Origin: Pseudogymnoascus verrucosus
Lineage: Eukaryota
Length of the DNA stretch: 64,000 nt
Assembly: GCA_001662655.1 (NCBI GenBank)
Contig: KV460240.1
Strand: one strand, 5' to 3'
A model generated the notes under the pieces. It searched no databases and was not told the origin of the DNA. It worked only from the letters and a program-made list of their open reading frames with translations. The position numbers were made by a program, and so were the translations under genes. Every line of letters begins with the position of its first letter. Positions within the stretch are counted from its first letter, which is position 1. Shown here piece by piece: positions 1 through 20,817 of the stretch.

Positions 1-2350
1 CTGGGTATCCCAATAGTGTCACAGAGGACTACATGGAGTAAGTTCCGAAATATTTCTAACGCGTCATACCTATCTGACAGTGGCCCTTAGATATCAGATC
101 TATGTAAGCATATCAACGTCTCATTGTCATATTATTCCATCTTGCTGGCCACGAAGCATTCATGTATCAAAAACTTCTACAAAGCATTGGCAACTACCCC
201 CCATCAAAACATCCCCTAACACCCCCTCAGGACTCGCTCCAAGCCTTCTCAAGCTCCATAGCTGGCCTCATCGCTTCCCGCGCTGTCCTCGAAGGTACCC
301 TCCCTCTCCCCTTATAATAACCCCTCCTAACACCCTCCAGGCGTTGGAGTCGGCGATGCCACTGCCTCCCCAACAACCGCCCTCCTCCTCTCCGTCCTGC
401 AAGACTCCACCGGCCGTATTGCCACCATCCTCTTCGCCGCACGCCTTGGCCTATCCCTCGAGCCCGAGTGCAAGCGCTGGCGTCTCGTCGCCGACATCTT
501 CAACGATGCCGCTATGATCCTCGATTGCCTCTCTCCCGCTTTCCCAAAGCCGCTACGCGTCAGCCTACTCAGCGCATCTGCCGCACTGCGCGCCCTCTGC
601 GGTGTCGCCGCTGGCTCTGCAAAGGCAAGTCTGAGCGCGCACTTTGCTAAGAGCGGTAACCTGGGCGAGTTGAACGCTGTAAGTTGCCCCTCCCATTACC
701 CCCATCAGATCTCAACCCCTAACAAACCCACAGAAAGATTCCTCCCAAGAAACCATCATCTCCCTCTTCGGCATGCTCGTCGGCACCGCCCTAATCCCCC
801 ACCTCACCACCCCCCTCCAAACCTGGACCTACCTCCTCCTCCTCCTCTCCATCCACCTAACCACCAATTACTTCGCCGTCCGCGCCGTCAGCATGCGCAC
901 CCTAAACCGGCAACGCGCCTCCCTCGTCCTCCGCCCCCTCCTCTCCCCCCCCATCGGCCCCTACGACCTCCCCCCAAACCCGATCGCCACACCCCTCCTC
1001 ATATCACAACAAGAAACAGTAATCCACCTCGACCCCTCCTCACTCCACGATCCAAACCCAGCACACGCCTCCTTCGTCCCTCTCGCCACAGTTCTCTCCC
1101 GTGCTTCGCGCGGCCCGAACCCAATAAAGCCACACATCCTCTTCAGCATCTTCGCCGCAGAATCATACATCCTCTATTTTGACCGCTACACTCGCCACGC
1201 ATTCATAGCGCTCAAATCGTACGCCACAACGTCTACAGCCCTACGCGCCTGGTTCTGCGCCATGGAGTGCGCGCACATGGACGATGGTATGTGGGCGGGC
1301 GGCTGGAGAAGGGGGCTTTCGTGGAAGCCTACGCATGGGGGGGAGGAGGGCACGGATTCCGCGGCGCTAGCGGGGTGCGTGAAGCACGTTGAGAGTGTGT
1401 GGCCGGTTATTAAAAAGGCGTTGAAGGGGAAGGGGTGGGATGTTGATACTAATGCGCTTGAGACGAGGGCGGGGACGAGGTTTCGTGTTGTTGGGGGGAA
1501 GGAGAGGGAGAAGTGGGAGTGGTGGCAGAAGTGGGTTGTGGAAAAGAAGGAAACGCGGCCGAGGGAGACTACGAGCGAAACGACGGAGAAGAAGGGGAAG
1601 GAGGTTAAGAAAGATGCCGTGTGGCCGCCGCTGCCGCCGTGGCCGATCTCTTGGGCTCTTGGGAAGAAAAGCAAGAAATCGGAAAATGTGGCGCTGGTTC
1701 AATCACCTATAAAGGAAATAGCGAGCGAGGCACCCAGCGAAGCAACAGCGAGCTCGGCAACATCGCCCGTCTCGGAAGCAGGATCACATACATCCCGACC
1801 CAAACACCGCCTGCGGAAATGGCTCTCCTCCACCTTCCTTGGAAGTCACGCACCGCGCGGAAGGGAAGACAGGGACAGTGATGCGTCTTCCTCCCGGAGT
1901 GAAAGACCATCGACTGAGAAGCCCTCCCATGACGTCCTCCGTGAGAAAGCAGCGATGGAAGCAGCAGCGGCTGACAGACCCTCCTCCTCCGTCCTCTCCG
2001 AGAAAGCAGCGATGGAAGCAGCAGCGACTCACAAACCCTCCTCCTCCATCCTCTCGGAGAAAGCAGCCCTAGAAGCAGCAGAGGCTGCTAAGCCGTCCTC
2101 CTCCTCCGTCCTCTCCGAGAAAACAGCGATGGAAGCAGCAGCTGCCGATAAACCCTCCTCTTCCTCCGCCCCCTCCAAGAAAGCAGCGCTACAAGCAGCA
2201 GAAGCAGCCGAAGTAGCAGCGTTGGCAGCAGCAGCAACGGCAGCCCGGAACCACGCCAGCAGCTCATCCGAACCCCCGCCGCCCTATTCAGAACTTGTCA
2301 CCAAGGAAGCAGTGGATGAGGGAGGCGAGAGTAGTAGAAAGACCGAGTGA
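1..2350 (+). CDS. RUS1/DUF647 (root UVB-sensitive family) protein, 5'-truncated by the window edge, with a long low-complexity C-terminal extension
   Basis: Exons <1-37, 91-103, 231-294, 341-678, 734-2350 joined by GT..AG introns give GYPNSVTEDYMEYQIYDSLQAFSSSIAGLIASRAVLEGVGVGD...EPECKRWRLVADIFND...KASLSAHFAKSGNLGELNAKDSSQET, typical DUF647 motifs. Confidence 0.9.
1915..2235 (+). repeat. Coding tandem repeat of about 5 degenerate ~57-63 bp units encoding KPSSSVLSEKAAMEAAAA
   Basis: Repeated ccctcctcctccgtcctctccgagaaagcagcgatggaagcagcagc units are visible in both the DNA and the translation. Confidence 0.9.
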
Positions 2351-14628: not shown

Positions 14629-15885
14629 TTACTCAGTAACCTCCCACGCCCTAACCGCTCCATCATCCCCACTCGAAACTACCATCTCCCCCTCCTTCCC
14701 ATCAAACCGCTGACACCACGTAACATGATTAATCTCATACGGTCCATGTCCCATTTCCGCTGTGGCGAGGATCTTCCAGTTTCCTGGGCCAACCTTCTCT
14801 CCCTCCTCCCCATTCCCCTCCCCCTTCTCCCCCTCCTTTTCCCCCTCCTTCCCCTCCTCCTCCCCCTTCCCCGCATCCTCAGCCTTCACCTCCCCATACA
14901 CCACAATCCTCGAATCCCCCCCACAACTCACCACCCTCCCTGTCCTCTCACTCCACGCCACCGCATACACAGCCCTCGTATGCGCCTTCGGCAACACCGC
15001 CTCAAGCACCCATTTCTCCCCCTGCGCTGCCGCCCGCATCGTCGATGGGATCCCGCCACTCTCCGCCTCCGCAGCTTCGACGCGGCGCCAGACGCGGAGA
15101 GTCGTGTCGGCTGAGCAGGTTATTAGGCGGCGGTGTTTATGCTTCTGTGCGTCCTCCTCCTCGGGCTTGGAATCAGCCTCTGCCTGGGACTGGGAAATAG
15201 ACTTCGACTCCGCACCACCTTCCCAAGCAACACCCCAAACCGTCTCCTCCCCCCCCTCAAGCACACCAACACACCCCCATTCCCCCTCCGCATCCTCCCT
15301 CCACACGCGCACCGTGCCATCGTAACTGGAGCTGGCTAGACACTCCCCTTCATCGCCCTCGCTCGGGGCCCAGGCAACGCACTTCACATCCCCTTCGTGC
15401 TCGGTTAGGACGGCGACGGTCTCCCATTCATCGGCACCGTCGACTTCTTCCCAGATCCAGATACTCTTGTCGCGGGAGCAGGTGGCGAGGTATTGGCCTG
15501 AGGGACTGAAGGCTAGGGATTTGACTTCGGCATCGTGGCCTTCGAGGACGACGCTGAATTCCCAATCCTCCCCCTCTTCCCTGTCCTCCACTTCGCCGTC
15601 ATCCCCGGTGCTCTCATCGCGCCGCCATACTCCGGCGGTACCGTCGAAGGATCCGGTCACCAAGCCGAGTTCGCCGGGGCGGAGATGCGGTTTCCAAGCC
15701 GTAGAACGGATAGAGCGGGTGTGGCCGCCTTCGAGGATGGAGTGAGGGGTTGAGGTGCGGAGAGAGGTTATTTGGGCGGATTTGCCGAGGGAGGTCGAGA
15801 GGAGGGGGAGCGTGGGGTGGGGGGTTGAGTGCCAGGCGCGGTGGGGGGAGGGGGGGTGGAGGGGGGGGAGAGGGGTTAGTTGCAT
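14629..15885 (-). CDS. CIA1: Cytosolic iron-sulfur protein assembly WD40 protein Cia1
   Basis: Intronless 418 aa WD40 protein: GHTRSIRSTAW, VLEGHDAEVKSLAFSPSGQYLATCSRDKSIWIWE, TEHEGDVKCVAW, YEINHVTW. Confidence 0.93.
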   Translation of the reverse strand: MQLTPLPPLHPPSPHRAWHSTPHPTLPLLSTSLGKSAQITSLRTSTPHSILEGGHTRSIRSTAWKPHLRPGELGLVTGSFDGTAGVWRRDESTGDDGEVEDREEGEDWEFSVVLEGHDAEVKSLAFSPSGQYLATCSRDKSIWIWEEVDGADEWETVAVLTEHEGDVKCVAWAPSEGDEGECLASSSYDGTVRVWREDAEGEWGCVGVLEGGEETVWGVAWEGGAESKSISQSQAEADSKPEEEDAQKHKHRRLITCSADTTLRVWRRVEAAEAESGGIPSTMRAAAQGEKWVLEAVLPKAHTRAVYAVAWSERTGRVVSCGGDSRIVVYGEVKAEDAGKGEEEGKEGEKEGEKGEGNGEEGEKVGPGNWKILATAEMGHGPYEINHVTWCQRFDGKEGEMVVSSGDDGAVRAWEVTE

Positions 15886-17048
15886 TGTTGTGGTGGTGGG
15901 GGGTGGGTGGAGGTTGTAGGTGTTTGGGGGGTTGGAGAGGTGAGGTGAGGTTGGTAGGTAGGCAGTTTGCAGGTTGGGAGGTGAGATTGTATGGATTGTA
16001 TTGTGGTTGTGGTTGAATCCTCGATGGCGGGGTTGTGATTCGAAGGAGGGGTAGCTCCGTATGCTATCTGCGCGGAGACGTCGGATGCTCCGCTTGGTAT
16101 CGTCAAGCTAAGAATTGCCGGGGATGGTATAGACACAGGTAACGCTCCAGTCGATGTATGTCGCGTCATGTGCACTTCCGTGATTATATATTTATTTCCT
16201 CACTATCGCAGTGCGTAACCGAATTGATCAATCAGCCTCGTCTGGCAGCGTGGGGGATTGGCGGGGCCGGTGCCGGATCAACGACCCCGCCGAGACGGCG
16301 GGTTCACCACCTACCACTTACCACTTACCACTTACCACTATCTTTTTGATACCACCACTACTCCTATATATTAGGAGGCTATCTAACCAGACTTTGACAG
16401 ACAACGACGGAATACGAGTAATGTAGAGAAAGCATAAAGGGAAGTTTACTTTCAACTTACAGAGCTAGCGAGCCTCTTCCATGGATTATGGATTACACTG
16501 GACTACCGTCTCAATACCTTCGATTGGCAAGCCTCTTGACTGGCACGTAACGAATCTAATCAGTATCCTCCACCGGACAGTTTGAACTATTTGATGTTGC
16601 TGTCATTGCTATTTGTCGTTGCCGCTTTCTATTGCCGTCACCGTTTTGCTGTCACCGTTGCTATTACTGTCACCACGTCGTACTATCACCACCATTCCTT
16701 CTAACCTCCCAGAAATAACATACGCCGTCTCACCAAACCTTCACACCTCCCCTATCAGTTACTCGTGGCGCCGTTGCAGTCTTTAGGGGGGCAACTTCCA
16801 TCGCTTCGTCGGTGACCGTGGGATGACTCGTTGGGATCAAAGAACGTCCGCAAGTTGCTCGCTCATTGATCTAATATATTCGCCAACGAGCGCGCATGGA
16901 ACGTATTCTTTGGATGGCGCTTCGGTGTTGGATTCCCTTGGATAAAGGATATATATGAGATAGGTTTTCTTGGTTTGGTTAGGTGATTATTCTTTTGATA
17001 TTTTTGGGGACGGTAGAGAAGGGGTGTTGCAGTAGGTGAATTTATAAA

Positions 17049-17126
17049 ATGTGCATCCCTGCATCACGGGACGCACCCTGTGACGGGACAAACTATTGGT
17101 ACTTTGAATTCAATTGATTCTAAATT
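17049..17126 (+). repeat. Left terminal inverted repeat
   Basis: atgtgcatccctgcatcacgggacgcaccctgtgacgggacaaactattggtactttgaattcaattgattctaaatt. Confidence 0.92.
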
Positions 17127-17526
17127 TGCGAGTCGTGTAACTACTCTTGAACAGACTAAACCCCAGCGACTCTGAAATTTACGATCACGTCGTTGCTGTC
17201 GCATCTAATTGCAGAGGGTGTCAATTCAAAGTATAATAGAACCCCTCGAGCTACAGCATCACCACGAACTCTTATCACTCCTAATACCCATAAGAGAGTC
17301 TTATCTAACCTTTAAGGCACCACTACGATACAGGAGATTGTCATTAGCCTTATAGTGGCAGTGCAGGGCAAATTCATACATGGTTGCCATGGAAATTAAT
17401 ACCTCGAGTCAAAAGCGACTAACAATTTTGGTTAGTGTACTATGGCACTGCACGTGATTTCACTTCGCTTTTGTCATCTTAAGCGTTAAGGGTGTGTGGC
17501 TAATTAGAAGTGTGGCTGAAGTAAAG

Positions 17527-18561
17527 CTAAAAACAGCACTGTACGACCGCGTTATGCCCAGACAGCGGCGTCCGACCATAGCAGTCCTTTGAGTCGACGT
17601 CCACCTTCCTAGTGTCGAGCAGCAGCTTCACGACTGCGTTGTGCCCGCCTGCCACAGCCCCATGTAGCAGCGTCCGACCGTAGGAGTCCTTCGAGTCAAC
17701 GTCCACCTCCCCGTTGTCAAGCAGGCGCTTCACGACTGCATTATGCCCGCCCGCTGCGGCCCCATACAGCGGCGTCTGACCGCCTATGTCCTTCGAGTTG
17801 ACATCCACCTTCCCGGTGTCGAGCAGCAGCTTCACAACCGCGTCGTGCCCCTCGTGTGCAGCCTAAGACAGTGGCGTACGACTGTGACAGTCCTTTGAGT
17901 CGACATCCACCTTCCTAGTGTCGAGCAGCCGCTTCACAACCGCGTTGTGCCCGCCTGCTACAGCCCTATGTAGCGGCGTCCGTCTGTAGGAGTCCTCCGA
18001 GTTGATGTCCACCTTCCCGGTGTCGAGCAGCCGCTTCACGACCGCGTCGTGCCCGCCCGCCGCGGCCCCATACAGCGGCGTTTGACCGTCGCACTCAAAC
18101 ATCCAATCGTGGAAGTACTTCAAGTCAACGTCTACCTTCCTAGTGTTGAGAAGCAGCTTCACAACCGCGTCATGCCCGCACCTCGCGGCCTCAGATAGCG
18201 GTGTATGACCGAAGGGGTCCTTCGATTCGACAGCCACTTCCCCGGTGTCGAGCAGCAGCTTCACGACCGCGTGGTGCCCGTCGAGCGCAGCCCGAGACAG
18301 CGGCGTCCAACCGAGAGGGTCCTTCGCTTTAACATCAGCTCCTCCTTCCAAAAACTTTCGAGTCGTCGCCTCTTGCCCTTGTTGTGCAGCCCACCATAAC
18401 CCTGAGCTCTTAAGTTGTTGTATGTTGTGGCGATAGAGATAAGTATTAAGGACATTGTACAGGCGGCTATTTGCTTGGCTAAAAGCATTGATATCTCTCT
18501 CTGAGTCTAGATTTTCCGATATAGACAACAATAATTCGTTCACTAAATCAAGTAGCGGCAT
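17527..18561 (-). pseudogene. F-box-like N-terminus plus ~9 ankyrin repeats, interrupted by one in-frame TAG (17863-17865)
   Basis: MPLLDLVNELLLSISENL...RLY (F-box-like) is followed by 34-aa repeats TPLxxAAxxGHxAVVKLLL. ORFs 17863-18609 and 17527-17835 share a frame and read RTPLS*AAHEGHDAVVKLL across the stop. Confidence 0.85.
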
Positions 18562-18973
18562 TTCTGAGGGGTTAGCTTCGCATCTAGGTAACTGCAACCA
18601 AGCACTCATGGTCGACTGCAGCTGCTGCGCAAGGTCGAGTGTGCCTTTGCCAGTTGTTCGCTTGTATTATATGACACAGTAGCCGCATGACACAGCAATC
18701 CCTGGTCACCATAAGGCTGAAAACGATTTTTCAGCATCGCGGTGAGGCTCGAAAACCCAGATCAAATAGTTATATCATTTTGAAAGATGCAAAGAGCTCG
18801 TGGTTGTGCTGTAGGTTAGGGGTCCTATTATACGTCAAATTGACGCCCTCTGTAATTAGGCGCAACAGCGACAACATGATAGTAAATTTTAGAGTAGCTG
18901 GGGTTTAGATTGTTTAGGAGTGGTTACACAACATAAGTGACACAGAAAAACTGGAAGTTTTAATAGATTCATG

Positions 18974-19050
18974 AATTTATAATCAATTGAATTCAAAGTA
19001 CCAATATTTGTCCCGTCACAGGGTGCGTCCCTTGATGCAGGGATGCACGT
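18974..19050 (-). repeat. Right terminal inverted repeat
   Basis: aatttataatcaattgaattcaaagtaccaatatttgtcccgtcacagggtgcgtcccttgatgcagggatgcacgt, the reverse complement of the left TIR. Confidence 0.92.
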
Positions 19051-19495
19051 TATAGACAATTATTTTAAAATTACCCAATGTACTGTATAGTAACTTGGCC
19101 ATGGCTAGACCATTCAAATATATTGGTGCACTTGTTATATTATCTAGAGAGCATTTTATTCATTCCTCACTATTTCTAGTCATTAGCCTGTCCTCTCGCA
19201 CCATACTTTATAACAACCAAGCGAGCAAGGGAGTAGATTCATGGATAGATCATATATTCAAGTCTATAGTCCAAAAAACCACCAAACTTATTTATCTCAA
19301 ACCCCCGCCCATTTTCCATGTCCATCCAAAAAACATCAGGCGTATTCTATCAAGCGTAGTCTATCAAAATCATGCGCTTCGATAAACTACCTCCAGGAGG
19401 CAAAAGCTCCCCAAATCAAAACGCCATGGATGCTTTCTTTCATCGTCATCATCTCATCTCATCCCTCATCATATATAGACATTCCCCACCACCCC

Positions 19496-20817
19496 TTAAA
19501 CCTCCTTCTCCTCAACGACCACACCCCATGGGTGGTCCTCGCGGCCGTACATGATATCCACGAGCCAGTTCTTGATGACATTGGTGTAATCGCCAACCTC
19601 TCCCTGAGCCATTGGGACATCGATATCAACGCCACGGAAGTGGATTTTCGACACCGGTGCGACGAAGAACTGCATCCCATATTAGCCGACCATTCACACT
19701 TCATTCTGGGGGAGAATAAGAGGAAAAAACTCACAGCCGTCCCACAAGCAAAACACTCCACCAACCTCCCCTCCTCCGACGCCTCCACAATCTCCTGCAT
19801 AGTATACTCCCTCTCCACCACCTCAATCGGCTCCAACTCGCCCTTCCCACTCAACCTCTCCTTAACAAGCTGAATCACACTCCTCCTCGTCACCCCATCA
19901 AGAATAACCTTACTATCCAACGGCGCCGTAATCAACTGCAACTTTCCCCCCTCCTTACTCCTCATCACCGTGAAGAAATTACTCGCTCCCGCCTCCGTAA
20001 CCTGCGCCTCATCCCCCAAAAGCCAGAGGACTTGGTTGAACCCCAACCTCCGCGCTTCTTGCTGCGCCATCAGACTAGGTCCGTAATTCGCGCCTACCTT
20101 GGCGAATCCGAATCCACCGGGCCACGCGCGGACGGTGTCGTTTTGCGAGGCGAGAAGCTTCATGCCGCCGGGGGTCTCGGAGAGCTCGGGCATGTATGTC
20201 GCGATGATGAAGAGCATTGCCTCCTTGGGGGTTTGGACGCCCAGCTCGGCTTGCGTGCCGATCATCGTAGGGCGGAGATACAAGAACTTCCCCGCATCGG
20301 ACTTGGGCAGGAATTTGGCGGCGTCAACGGCGACGAGCTCGGCGATCAGCTTCTCTATCTCCGCGGTGTCGAAGGTCGGGAGCGCGATGCGCGCAGATGA
20401 CATGAGGAGGCGCTTCGCGTTGCAGTCTGGGCGGAAGAGGCGGACCTTGCCGTCGTAGCCGCGGTAGCATTTAAGCCCCTCGAAGCACTCGGTGGCGTAG
20501 TGAAGCACCGAGGCCGTGGGCATGATGGAGAAGGGACCGTAGGGCTTCAGCTCGGGGACGCCCCAGCCGCTGTTCACGTTCCAGGTGCATGTTATCATGT
20601 GGTCTGTCGCGAAGGAGGAGACGTTGCGGATGGGGTCGTCGAGGGCGGGGACGGTGCGGGGGGTTGTCGTGCGCGTGCGGGTCAGCTTTGAGGCGTCGAG
20701 GGCCGCGAGGGAGGGCGCGGTGGTGCTGGAGAGCTTCGCGGCCACGGCGTCGGCGATCAGGGTGGTTCCTTGCGCCATGGCCTGGGGAGGCGTGGCGGAT
20801 ACGGCGGAGGGAGACAT
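19496..20817 (-). CDS. Branched-chain amino acid aminotransferase (class IV PLP enzyme)
   Basis: LHYATECFEGLKCYRG, LYLRP, AKVGANYGPSL, EAGASNFF, ILDGVTRRS. Intron 19670-19734 restores ...FACGTAFFVAPVS...IMYGREDHPWGVVVEEKEV*. Confidence 0.95.

What the first reader, a model, noticed from the sequence alone, without database searches (positions are those of the whole stretch)
17049..19050. Gene-carrying non-autonomous TIR transposon ('Pack'-type) with an F-box-like/ankyrin cargo
Seen in sequence: 77-78 bp inverted repeats (4 differences) bracket ~2.0 kb that holds no transposase, only an intronless F-box-like plus ankyrin gene with room for its own promoter and terminator. The TIRs contain internal direct repeats (ACGGGAC x2). 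The right end reads ACGT|TA; the left reads AA|ATGT, consistent with decay (CpG to TpG). The element sits between housekeeping genes CIA1 and the aminotransferase and differs from them in composition. Established: TA target duplication and ACGT-starting TIRs occur in fungal Tc1/mariner/pogo elements, and gene-capturing TIR elements are well known in plants (Pack-MULEs). Inference: a mobile vehicle that spreads F-box-ankyrin genes (SCF-adaptor or effector-like proteins) and could account for ankyrin family expansion.
Basis: partly seen in the sequence, partly recalled or inferred. Interest (0 to 1): 0.82.

Follow-up and report, generated by a model that had tools for sequence, protein, structure and literature searches.

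The report
Gene-carrying cut-and-paste transposon in Pseudogymnoascus
A 2-kb jumping-gene shell in a cold-soil fungus has had its own enzyme gene replaced by a complete F-box-like/ankyrin gene; it is present here, absent from the same spot in two related fungi and sits elsewhere in one of them, making it a clear but single-copy fungal case of a transposon moving a host-type gene.

Summary
Window 17049-19050 is bounded by inverted repeats that are 94% alike over the outer 80 nt and 85% alike over about 225 aligned nt.

Laying contigs of four related genomes on the region gave four results:
- The ends are multi-copy in all four genomes.
- The ankyrin interior is single-copy in three genomes and absent from the fourth.
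- Two relatives carry the CIA1-aminotransferase interval without the 2,016 nt.
- One of those two still holds the same ends-plus-cargo unit somewhere else.

A named Pseudogymnoascus protein, 96% identical, also has a different upstream flank.

ACGT termini, a flanking TA and the 2.0-kb size match the Tc1-Mariner families described in Sclerotinia, another Leotiomycete (PMC4188875). No transposase partner could be retrieved.

The cargo is a complete F-box-like plus eight-ankyrin gene. In this window it is a pseudogene, with TAG where two other genomes read CGG. Fifteen environmental relatives of the cargo show no such repeats.

The core reading, a Pack-type non-autonomous TIR element, is supported. 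The idea that it spreads or expands ankyrin genes is not. This is a new member of a known kind and of moderate interest.

The parts
17049..19050 (.). Whole element (2,002 nt), from ATGT (decayed ACGT) to ACGT
   Evidence: Other copies' contigs start matching at 17051 and stop at 19052. Contigs of two relatives skip 17048-19063. Sequence.
17049..17275 (+). Left inverted-repeat arm (outer 80 nt 94% like the right arm; about 85% overall)
18790..19050 (-). Right inverted-repeat arm; carries a 36-nt insertion relative to the left arm
17066..17089 (+). Two ACGGGAC words 17 nt apart inside the left arm. One is AAGGGAC in the right arm. They may be a transposase-binding repeat; this was not tested.
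   Evidence: Apart from this 7-mer, no arm-spanning internal direct repeat was found; one 10-nt, 90% pair lies in the left arm.
17049..17445 (.). Left end shared with the multi-copy family. Other copies' alignments stop at 17413, but their next 30 letters still resemble the window by eye.
   Evidence: tables 2 and 7. The depth bin 17337-17503 is intermediate.
17409..17459 (-). Possible remnant of the last codons and stop of the family's own ORF (...TLTKIVSRF*)
   Evidence: translation. The likeness to the loose-end letters was judged by eye (inference).
17446..18683 (-). Cargo-specific segment: single-copy in X1-X3, no cover in X4 at 18339-18672
   Evidence: tables 2, 7 and 8
17527..18609 (-). 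Cargo CDS: an F-box-like N-terminus plus eight ankyrin repeats, 359 residues if read through. It ends at the family's usual C-terminus (GHxAVV...).
17863..17865 (-). In-frame TAG (codon 249). Contigs of X2 and X3 read CGG (Arg) here.
   Evidence: (table 3)
18684..19050 (.). Right end shared with the multi-copy family. It has a sharp break at 18683/18684, 74 nt upstream of the cargo ATG.
   Evidence: table 7 (loose ends before 18684 in X2, X3 and X4; 3-4 contigs each, agreement 0.71-0.88) and table 8
18606..18737 (-). Short ORF starting in the shared right end (MLKNRFQPYGDQGLLCHA...). It may be the start of the family's own ORF. Here it runs into the cargo and stops after 43 codons.
   Evidence: The link to the other copies is by eye only. 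No protein match.
19051..19052 (.). TA next to the right terminus (candidate target-site duplication). The left counterpart reads AA (17047-17048).
   Evidence: all other copies match through 19052, then diverge

Best explanation
This is a non-autonomous member of a multi-copy cut-and-paste DNA transposon family of Pseudogymnoascus, most likely the fungal ACGT...TA type of Tc1-Mariner.

The element keeps about 370-400 nt of family sequence at each end, including inverted repeats of about 225-260 nt. The middle, which in the other family members is different sequence and presumably the transposase gene, has been replaced. In its place is a 1.24-kb piece holding one complete intronless F-box-like plus eight-ankyrin gene, in the same orientation as the apparent original ORF.

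The composite moves as one unit. It occupies the CIA1-aminotransferase spacer in this genome and one relative. It is missing from that spacer in two others, and in one of those it lies at another locus.

Inferred steps:
- It must be mobilised in trans by a family transposase that recognises the ends.
- The capture probably arose by template switching during gap repair after an excision.
- Transcription of the cargo would have to start in the transposon's own upstream end.

In this window the cargo is decaying. It has one nonsense codon and several Gly-to-Arg changes in ankyrin motifs, all of them GC-to-AT transitions.
For: Shown:
- Inverted repeats.
- Multi-copy ends. Summed depth over the ends is 1,120-1,955 against flanks of 166-256 in X1, 205-471 against 41-50 in X2, 257-730 against 36 in X3, and 118-420 against 19 in X4. 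At single positions 3-16 distinct variant contigs were counted.
- Single-copy interior. Exactly one contig's depth covers 18339-18672 in X1 (184.3), X2 (48.7) and X3 (42.6); depth is 0 in X4.
- Empty allele. One contig of 35,623 nt in X3 and one of 8,795 nt in X4 join 17047 to 19064, with 255 letters on each side, at single-copy depth (tables 5 and 8).
- Cargo elsewhere in X3. X3 still has contigs covering 17252-17773, 17756-18079 and 18059-19003, with 9, 14 and 23 differences. These join the cargo to the inner parts of both ends (table 8).
- Same locus in X2. A contig bridges the left junction by 34 nt (16312-17084, 3 differences).
- A different flank in a named strain. Protein P0001 of Pseudogymnoascus sp. 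VKM F-3557 is 96% identical to the cargo and includes end-derived residues. Its residues 1-140 match nothing in the 64-kb window.
- Ends. Other copies start matching at 17051, preceded by a consensus ...CTAAC in three runs. They stop at 19052, after ACGT-TA (table 7).
- Published match. Sclerotinia Tc1-Mariner elements are 1.8-2.3 kb. They start with ACGT in all families but one and duplicate TA. They have symmetric conserved UTRs and transposases of 453-574 aa (PMC4188875, passages).
- Cargo family. 879 proteins score E<=1e-3, and several small fungal ones carry PF12937.
- Relatives without repeats. 0 of 15 metagenome loci encoding relatives match the element's ends or contain inverted repeats.
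Against: - No autonomous copy or DDE transposase was retrieved. No whole genome is held.
- The TIR core found nothing in the metagenome collection. The putative N-terminal peptide of the family ORF found no protein.
- The left junction lacks the expected TA: it reads AA, then ATGT.
- The empty allele is not a clean single-TA site. It has eight letters (TACTTTTA) where this genome has the element. So a small deletion, or an excision footprint, has to be assumed.
- A 3-bp TWA duplication (PIF/Harbinger type) cannot be strictly excluded from one copy.
- No parental gene at 80% likeness or more exists in the source genome. So the donor of the cargo is unknown.
- Contig depths are sums and not true copy numbers.
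Confidence: 0.8

Rival explanations
1. A resident F-box/ankyrin gene that happens to be flanked by two independent insertions of a small inverted-repeat element (MITE) in opposite orientation.
For: The ends are multi-copy while the interior is single-copy. That is also what two MITEs around a gene would give. Some contigs appear to join left-end to right-end sequence (for example 17314 to 18816 and 17351 to 18818 in X1, 'between: not known'), which is compatible with short cargo-less relatives (table 5).
Against: The empty allele in X3 and X4 lacks both ends and the gene together, with breakpoints at the outer termini. In X3 the gene, at another locus, is still joined to the inner parts of both ends (table 8). 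The VKM F-3557 protein model also joins end-derived residues to the gene with a different upstream flank. The two halves share 370-400 nt with full-size relatives that diverge inward at defined points (17413 and 18684). This is the pattern of one element with a replaced middle.
Confidence: 0.05
2. The element is real, but it belongs to another TIR superfamily (for example PIF/Harbinger with a TWA duplication), or to a family with no living autonomous partner. On this reading the 'Tc1-Mariner' label is wrong.
For: The termini can also be read as TWA plus CGTGC.... The window's right side is GCACG|TTA and the consensus of the other copies' left side is TAA|CGTGC. No transposase was seen. The arms of about 225-260 nt are longer than the 36-70 nt reported for Sclerotinia Tc1-Mariner TIRs.
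Against: ACGT termini with TA, a 2.0-kb size and symmetric subterminal regions are the published signature of Leotiomycete Tc1-Mariner families (PMC4188875). The window's left junction fits the expected sequence with a single C-to-T change only if the terminus is ACGTGC (by eye). An 8-bp hAT-type duplication is excluded, because both candidate octamers are present side by side in the empty allele (table 5c).
Confidence: 0.12
3. The presence/absence is a deletion in the C/D lineage of an old inverted-duplication-flanked segment, not transposition. The second locus in C is then a segmental duplicate.
For: The empty allele carries eight unexplained letters instead of a clean target site (table 5c).
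Against: The breakpoints coincide with the termini at which several other genomic copies also end (17051 and 19052, table 7). There are no direct repeats that could drive such a deletion. The cargo unit is single-copy at a different place in C, not duplicated.
Confidence: 0.03

Closest known systems
Tc1-Mariner families of Sclerotinia sclerotiorum (Mariner-1_SS etc.; Santana et al. 2014, PMC4188875; passages read) and the DAHLIAE families of Verticillium cited there
   Same: Both hosts are Leotiomycetes. Shared features are a 1.8-2.3 kb size, termini beginning ACGT, a TA duplication, symmetric conserved untranslated regions next to the TIRs, and truncated or MITE-like relatives mobilisable in trans.
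   Different: Those elements encode a 453-574-aa DDE transposase, and their TIRs are 36-70 nt. Here the middle is an F-box-like/ankyrin gene, the inverted similarity runs for about 225-260 nt, and no sequence similarity to those families was tested.
Pack-TYPE transposons of plants, including Pack-Mariner of rice (PMC8903248; abstract and passages)
   Same: Both are non-autonomous TIR elements whose ends match a transposon family and whose less repeated interior is host-type coding DNA.
   Different: According to the passages read, plant Pack-TYPE elements carry regions of 58-280 bp matching host genes, sometimes from several loci. Here one complete gene from start to natural stop is carried. 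It is single-copy per genome, in a fungus.
hAT-mediated transduplication of histone H3 in Dothideomycetes (Pyrenophora tritici-repentis, Pseudocercospora fijiensis; PMC6710886 passages; PMC3538342 search listing only)
   Same: In both cases a fungal DNA transposon carries a complete host-type coding sequence between its termini, with copies degraded by GC-to-AT mutation.
   Different: Those are hAT elements of about 9.5 kb with 8-bp duplications. They retain hAT domains and were amplified to 26 to hundreds of copies from an identifiable parental gene. Here the element is a 2-kb shell without a transposase. It has not been amplified, and no parental gene was found.
Small fungal F-box-like + ankyrin proteins (for example 'F-box domain-containing protein' of Penicillium olsonii, P. 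salamii and Trichoderma gamsii, about 254-256 aa)
   Same: They share the architecture: an N-terminal F-box-like helix region followed by ankyrin repeats that end ...GHxAVVKLLE. They are 40-48% identical.
   Different: Those are ordinary chromosomal genes on long contigs. The window's copy lies inside a transposon shell, has more repeats (eight), and itself scores no Pfam F-box hit.

Membership tests
Tc1-Mariner superfamily (fungal ACGT/TA type) | Terminal inverted repeats | tested here: met
   The outer 80 columns give 74 matches, 5 mismatches and 1 gap. Similarity is 85% over about 225 aligned nt.
Tc1-Mariner superfamily (fungal ACGT/TA type) | TA target-site duplication | tested here: inconclusive
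   The right junction is ACGT|TA, but the left junction reads AA|ATGT. Other copies match through the TA at 19052 and then diverge. Their left flanks give a consensus ...TA|AC in 3 runs (table 7). Both flanks of one intact copy were never seen together.
Tc1-Mariner superfamily (fungal ACGT/TA type) | ACGT at the termini (feature reported for Leotiomycete families, PMC4188875) | tested here: met
   The right terminus is ACGT. The left is ATGT, and other copies' loose ends read AC before GTGC.
Tc1-Mariner superfamily (fungal ACGT/TA type) | Length 1.3-2.4 kb | tested here: met
   2,002 nt (17049-19050). The range comes from PMC4188875.
Tc1-Mariner superfamily (fungal ACGT/TA type) | A DDE/D transposase with HTH domains encoded by autonomous family members | not testable with these tools
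   No genome is held. The TIR core gave 0 hits in metagenome contigs. The peptide search found none. The other copies' interiors were seen only as 30-letter loose ends.
Pack-type / transduplicating non-autonomous DNA transposon | Ends shared with a multi-copy TIR family, interior not shared | tested here: met
   Depth and contig counts over 17003-17503 and 18673-19173, against single-contig cover of 18339-18672.
Pack-type / transduplicating non-autonomous DNA transposon | No transposase of its own | tested here: met
   Pfam finds only ankyrin families in the two translated parts of the cargo ORF. Six-frame translations of the ends are full of stops.
Pack-type / transduplicating non-autonomous DNA transposon | Interior derived from a host gene | tested here: inconclusive
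   The cargo belongs to a widespread fungal gene family (879 hits), and relatives are not repeat-flanked (0 of 15 loci). But no parental copy at 80% likeness or more exists in the source genome. The nearest named Pseudogymnoascus protein outside the element is 55% identical (P0016).
Pack-type / transduplicating non-autonomous DNA transposon | The composite is mobile as a unit | tested here: met
   The empty allele occurs in X3 and X4. The cargo joined to the ends lies elsewhere in X3. The VKM F-3557 model has a different flank.
Pack-type / transduplicating non-autonomous DNA transposon | Amplification of the captured gene ('transduplication' in the strict sense) | tested here: not met
   The cargo is single-copy in X1, X2 and X3 and absent in X4.
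F-box protein (SCF substrate adaptor) | Recognisable F-box domain | tested here: inconclusive
   The window's N-terminus matches 0 Pfam families at E<=5. PF12937 is hit by 3 of the 5 aligned sequences, that is 3 of the 4 relatives (best E 1e-6), and these are 68-80% identical to it.
F-box protein (SCF substrate adaptor) | Binding to Skp1 | not tested
   No complex prediction or experiment was done.
hAT superfamily | 8-bp target-site duplication | tested here: not met
   The flanking octamers differ (5 of 8 alike, by eye). Both are present side by side in the empty allele (table 5c).

The most novel reading that the evidence does not exclude
This may be a fungal 'Pack-Mariner' caught between lineages: a transposon shell that carries a complete F-box/ankyrin gene. 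In this reading:
- The gene is still intact in some Pseudogymnoascus lineages.
- It is transcribed from the transposase promoter and leader.
- It has been relocated by true cut-and-paste. The TA-...-TA letters left in the empty allele would then be an excision footprint.
- It may have passed between lineages, since the element differs less between genomes A and C (about 2.6%) than the adjoining spacer does (about 5.4%).

That would make it a natural vehicle moving a candidate ubiquitin-ligase adaptor around and between fungal genomes.
Probability: 0.2. Interest if true: 0.6.

Novelty: new member of a known kind. Interest (0 to 1): 0.42.

Why it matters
Gene capture by cut-and-paste transposons is well documented in plants (Pack-MULE, Pack-TYPE). 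In fungi, my five literature searches turned up hAT/histone H3, ToxhAT, Helitrons and Starships, but no compact Tc1-Mariner-type shell carrying a whole gene.

This locus offers a small, fully delimited example with natural occupied, empty and relocated alleles among closely related Pseudogymnoascus lineages. Three questions become directly testable:
- How such captures arise (the breakpoints are at about 17445 and at 18683/18684).
- Whether the transposon's own promoter drives the cargo.
- What happens to the cargo afterwards (intact at the tested codons in two lineages, decaying by GC-to-AT transitions in this one).

It does not explain ankyrin gene family expansion.

Tried and rejected
- Whole genome of the window: none is held. 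Copy counts and the autonomous partner could therefore not be taken from an assembly.
- Earlier notes of this scan: nothing by sequence, by place or by words.
- 22-nt TIR core against metagenome contigs: 0 matches.
A 51-aa stretch of the same frame, searched against longer proteins, had 19 word-sharing candidates and none at E<=10.
- Six-frame translations of both shared ends: no recognisable transposase remnant.
- IR/DR-type internal direct repeats in the arms: none beyond the 7-mer ACGGGAC and one 10-nt pair.
- Pfam F-box in the window's own N-terminus: none at E<=5.
- RIP indices are ambiguous. The ends give TpA/ApT 1.0 and 0.81. The cargo gives 1.2 with (CpA+TpG)/(ApC+GpT) 1.01, against 0.52-0.54 and 1.14-1.15 in the neighbouring genes. 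These are short sequences.
- Retrocopy idea (mRNA-sized cargo): there is no poly(A)/poly(T) trace at the 3' border (by eye), and relatives gave no intron information, so nothing speaks for it.
- The high-depth bins at 15834-16000 and 16168-16334 are G-rich and ACCACTT simple sequence, not part of the element.
- The 'opposite strands' joints are what inverted arms give when another copy aligns partly to each arm. I drew nothing from them.
Full report
**1. What is in the sequence**

Window 17049-19050 is bracketed by inverted repeats. The tool reports arms 17045-17092/19007-19054 (48 nt, 94%), 17091-17126/18974-19009 (36 nt, 94%) and 17132-17246/18818-18932 (115 nt, 82%). A pairwise alignment joins these into one long arm pair with a single 36-nt indel.

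Counted from GTGCATCC, the first 80 columns hold 74 matches, 5 mismatches and 1 gap. The first 262 columns hold 191 matches, 33 mismatches (23 transitions, 10 transversions) and 38 gap columns.

These are the only inverted repeats of 40 nt or more in the 64-kb window. The 37-nt core occurs twice, against none in 100 shuffles.

The window comes from a Pseudogymnoascus lineage. The neighbouring CIA1-like WD40 protein is 100% identical over 97% of its length to a named protein of Pseudogymnoascus sp. VKM F-103, and 77-89% identical to those of other Pseudogymnoascus. The other neighbour is a class IV aminotransferase.

**2. The cargo**

On the minus strand an ORF starts at 18609. It carries ankyrin repeats (Pfam Ank_2 E 4.9e-33 and others) in 102-nt units. 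It is cut by TAG at 17863-17865 and, read through, continues in frame to a stop at 17527-17529, giving 359 residues. Its last residues (GHNAVV...) sit where relatives end (...GHxAVVKLLE). So the coding sequence is complete from start to natural stop.

The N-terminal 95 residues match no Pfam family at E<=5. Four relatives that are 68-80% identical over this part were aligned with it, and 3 of the 5 sequences hit F-box-like PF12937 (best E 1e-6). Several small fungal homologues carry that domain in the precomputed annotation. 'F-box-like' therefore rests on homology, not on the window's own score.

**3. The decisive test: other genomes**

No assembly of the source genome is held. I therefore looked for public runs that hold the region. 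I then laid the contigs of four of them on window 15500-20500 at 80% likeness or more. The four are X1 (probably the source) and X2, X3 and X4 (three other coded organisms).

*(a) The ends are multi-copy.* Summed contig depth in the bins 17003-17336 and 18673-19173, against the flanks, was:

| Run | Ends | Flanks |
|---|---|---|
| X1 | 687-1,955 | 166-256 |
| X2 | 205-471 | 41-50 |
| X3 | 257-730 | 36 |
| X4 | 118-420 | 19 |

At single positions 3 to 16 different contigs carry variant letters. These sums are not copy numbers, but they show several distinct copies in every genome.

*(b) The interior is not multi-copy.* 18339-18672 is covered by exactly one contig's depth in X1 (184.3), X2 (48.7) and X3 (42.6), and by nothing in X4.

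*(c) There is an empty allele.* One X3 contig of 35,623 nt and one X4 contig of 8,795 nt run from the CIA1 side to the aminotransferase side. They join 17047 to 19064, skipping 2,016 nt. Each has 255 matching letters on both sides, at single-copy depth.

*(d) The unit lies elsewhere in X3.* X3 nevertheless holds the cargo. Its contigs cover 17252-17773, 17756-18079 and 18059-19003, with 9, 14 and 23 differences. These link the gene to the inner parts of both ends. Both the empty allele and the cargo are at single-copy depth, so the unit must lie at another locus in that genome.

*(e) X2 has it at the same locus.* A contig covering 16312-17084 bridges the left junction by 34 letters. The contig covering 19023-19893 reaches only 28-30 letters into the right end.

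Independent of these runs, the best database hit of the cargo is P0001, a partial protein of Pseudogymnoascus sp. VKM F-3557 on a 5,148-nt contig, and it is 96% identical. Its model runs through residues encoded by the right arm (147-167 match 18896-18834). Its residues 1-140 match nothing in the 64-kb window. That copy too therefore has a different flank.

**4. Anatomy of the family**

Contigs of other copies begin to match at 17051 and stop at 19052. Inward they stop at 17413 and start at 18684 (table 7).

The right breakpoint is sharp and lies 74 nt upstream of the cargo ATG. There, 3-4 contigs per run share a quite different preceding sequence (agreement 0.71-0.88). On the left, the 30 loose letters still resemble the window by eye, and the depth bin 17337-17503 is intermediate. 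I therefore place that border near 17445.

The element thus keeps about 370-400 nt of family sequence at each end, around a 1.24-kb cargo-specific middle.

By-eye reading (inference):
- The shared right end holds a minus-strand ATG at 18737 (MLKNRFQPYGDQGLLCHA...).
- The frame of that ATG stays open through the 30 letters that the other copies have beyond the breakpoint.
- The shared left end keeps ...TLTKIVSRF-stop at 17409-17411, which resembles the other copies' letters.

If so, the family's own ORF runs in the same direction as the cargo. It would be about 440 codons in an element of this size. A search with the N-terminal stretch found no protein, so this stays a hint.

**5. Ends and target**

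The right terminus reads ACGT followed by TA. The left reads AA followed by ATGT. In three runs, other copies' left flanks give a consensus ending ...CTAAC before GTGC. Their right sides all match through the TA and then diverge, with agreement of only 0.48-0.56. This fits termini ACGTGC... flanked by TA.

Passages of a paper on Sclerotinia sclerotiorum, another Leotiomycete, report Tc1-Mariner elements with these features (PMC4188875):
- a length of 1.8-2.3 kb;
- ACGT as the first four nucleotides in all families but one;
- duplicated TA sites;
- symmetric conserved untranslated regions;
- transposases of 453-574 aa.

The present element matches all the non-coding features, although its inverted similarity is longer than their 36-70-nt TIRs.

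The empty allele is not a textbook site. Between ...ATTTATAA and TATAGATAATTA it has TACTTTTA (table 5c). There are two possibilities, and an outgroup would decide between them:
- The insertion went into a TA of such a sequence, and this lineage then lost 7-9 nt at the left junction and changed C to T.
- The C/D allele is an excision footprint, with two TA copies kept around filler letters.

An 8-bp (hAT-type) duplication is excluded. A 3-bp TWA reading is not strictly excluded.

**6. Where the cargo comes from, and its state**

The cargo family is large: 879 proteins score E<=1e-3 among the lengths searched. It includes small F-box/ankyrin proteins of Penicillium, Trichoderma and others at 40-48% identity, and environmental sequences at 62-77%.

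A scan of metagenome contigs with an N-terminal alignment returned 15 loci, 54-71% identical. In a BLAST script, 0 of 15 matched either end of the element, and 0 of 15 contained an inverted repeat at E<1e-4. Only 5 of the 15 (L003, L005, L006, L010, L014) have at least 1.6 kb on both sides of the match, so the others say little.

No copy at 80% likeness or more other than the element itself exists in the source genome. The donor gene is unknown.

At 16 sites inside the CDS, X2, or X2 and X3, differ from the window. At 14 of these sites both runs agree with each other against the window. At 12 of those 14 the window has A or T where they have G or C. The consequences include:
- TAG for CGG at codon 249;
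- Arg for Gly at codons 157, 215 and 232, in the ankyrin motif DTGKVD;
- Leu for Pro at codon 314.

P0001 agrees with X2 and X3 at the two of these sites it covers.

The window's copy is thus a decaying pseudogene with a one-sided GC-to-AT pattern, several of the changes being CG-to-TA doublets. The other two copies are intact at these sites. I could not read their whole sequence.

**7.

The repeats are multi-copy, and the gene is not syntenic without repeats. The rival of two independent small insertions around a resident gene is contradicted by the unit-wise absence and by the relocated unit (section 3).

Three claims are not supported:
- The claim of a vehicle that spreads or expands ankyrin genes. 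The cargo is single-copy per genome, absent from one genome, and relatives are unflanked.
- The idea that the gene brings its own promoter. Only 74 nt of its own sequence lie upstream.
- Intactness in this genome.

**8. Comparison with what is known**

- Plants: Pack-TYPE elements, including Pack-Mariner of rice, are non-autonomous TIR elements with captured coding DNA (PMC8903248; abstract and passages).
- Fungi: 'transduplication' has been described for 9.5-kb hAT elements that carry histone H3 and amplify it to 26 or hundreds of copies (PMC6710886 passages; PMC3538342 seen only in the listing).
- Also in the listings: Helitron capture (PMC4289320; and a ToxB Helitron-like element, bioRxiv 10.1101/2025.11.13.688278, abstract), ToxhAT and Starships.
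- My five searches showed no report of a Tc1-Mariner-type shell with a whole gene in a fungus, nor of this element in Pseudogymnoascus. The comparative paper on these genomes (PMC4438637) was seen only in the listing, and its supplements were not opened.

I therefore file this as a new member of a known kind. It is a clean, well-delimited example of modest reach.

Noticed in passing
window 17545-18503 (cargo CDS): Compared with the copies in X2 and X3, the window's copy shows a one-sided mutation pattern. At 12 of the 14 CDS sites where both runs agree against the window, the window has A/T and they have G/C. Several are CG-to-TA doublets (17864/17865, 18141/18142). The pattern is RIP-like or methyl-CpG deamination-like, but the simple RIP indices are ambiguous.
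   Followed up: partly
window 18671-18695: The 9-mer ATGACACAG occurs twice, 16 nt apart, straddling the right capture breakpoint (18683/18684). This may be a trace of the joining event, or chance.
   Followed up: no
window 15500-20500 versus X2 contigs (table 8): Divergence between the window and organism B is uneven along the locus. It is 3 differences in 773 nt left of the element, 25 in about 1,800 nt inside it, 17 in 871 nt just to the right, and 27 in 634 nt in the aminotransferase gene. This mosaic pattern is reminiscent of the exchange of small fragments between lineages named in the title of PMC4438637 (listing only).
   Followed up: no
window 15834-16000 and 16290-16340: A G-rich low-complexity tract upstream of CIA1 and an (ACCACTT)n microsatellite attract many contigs in all four runs. 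They are simple sequence, not a mobile element.
   Followed up: yes
P0001 residues 1-140 (Pseudogymnoascus sp. VKM F-3557 model): The gene model fuses a Ser/Thr-rich N-terminal part from outside the element with arm-derived residues and the cargo. This is probably an annotation artefact, but it shows what lies next to that copy.
   Followed up: partly
window 1903-2224: Five tandem 57-60-nt units (64-100% alike) in a Ser/Ala-rich coding-like tract. They are unrelated to the finding.
   Followed up: no
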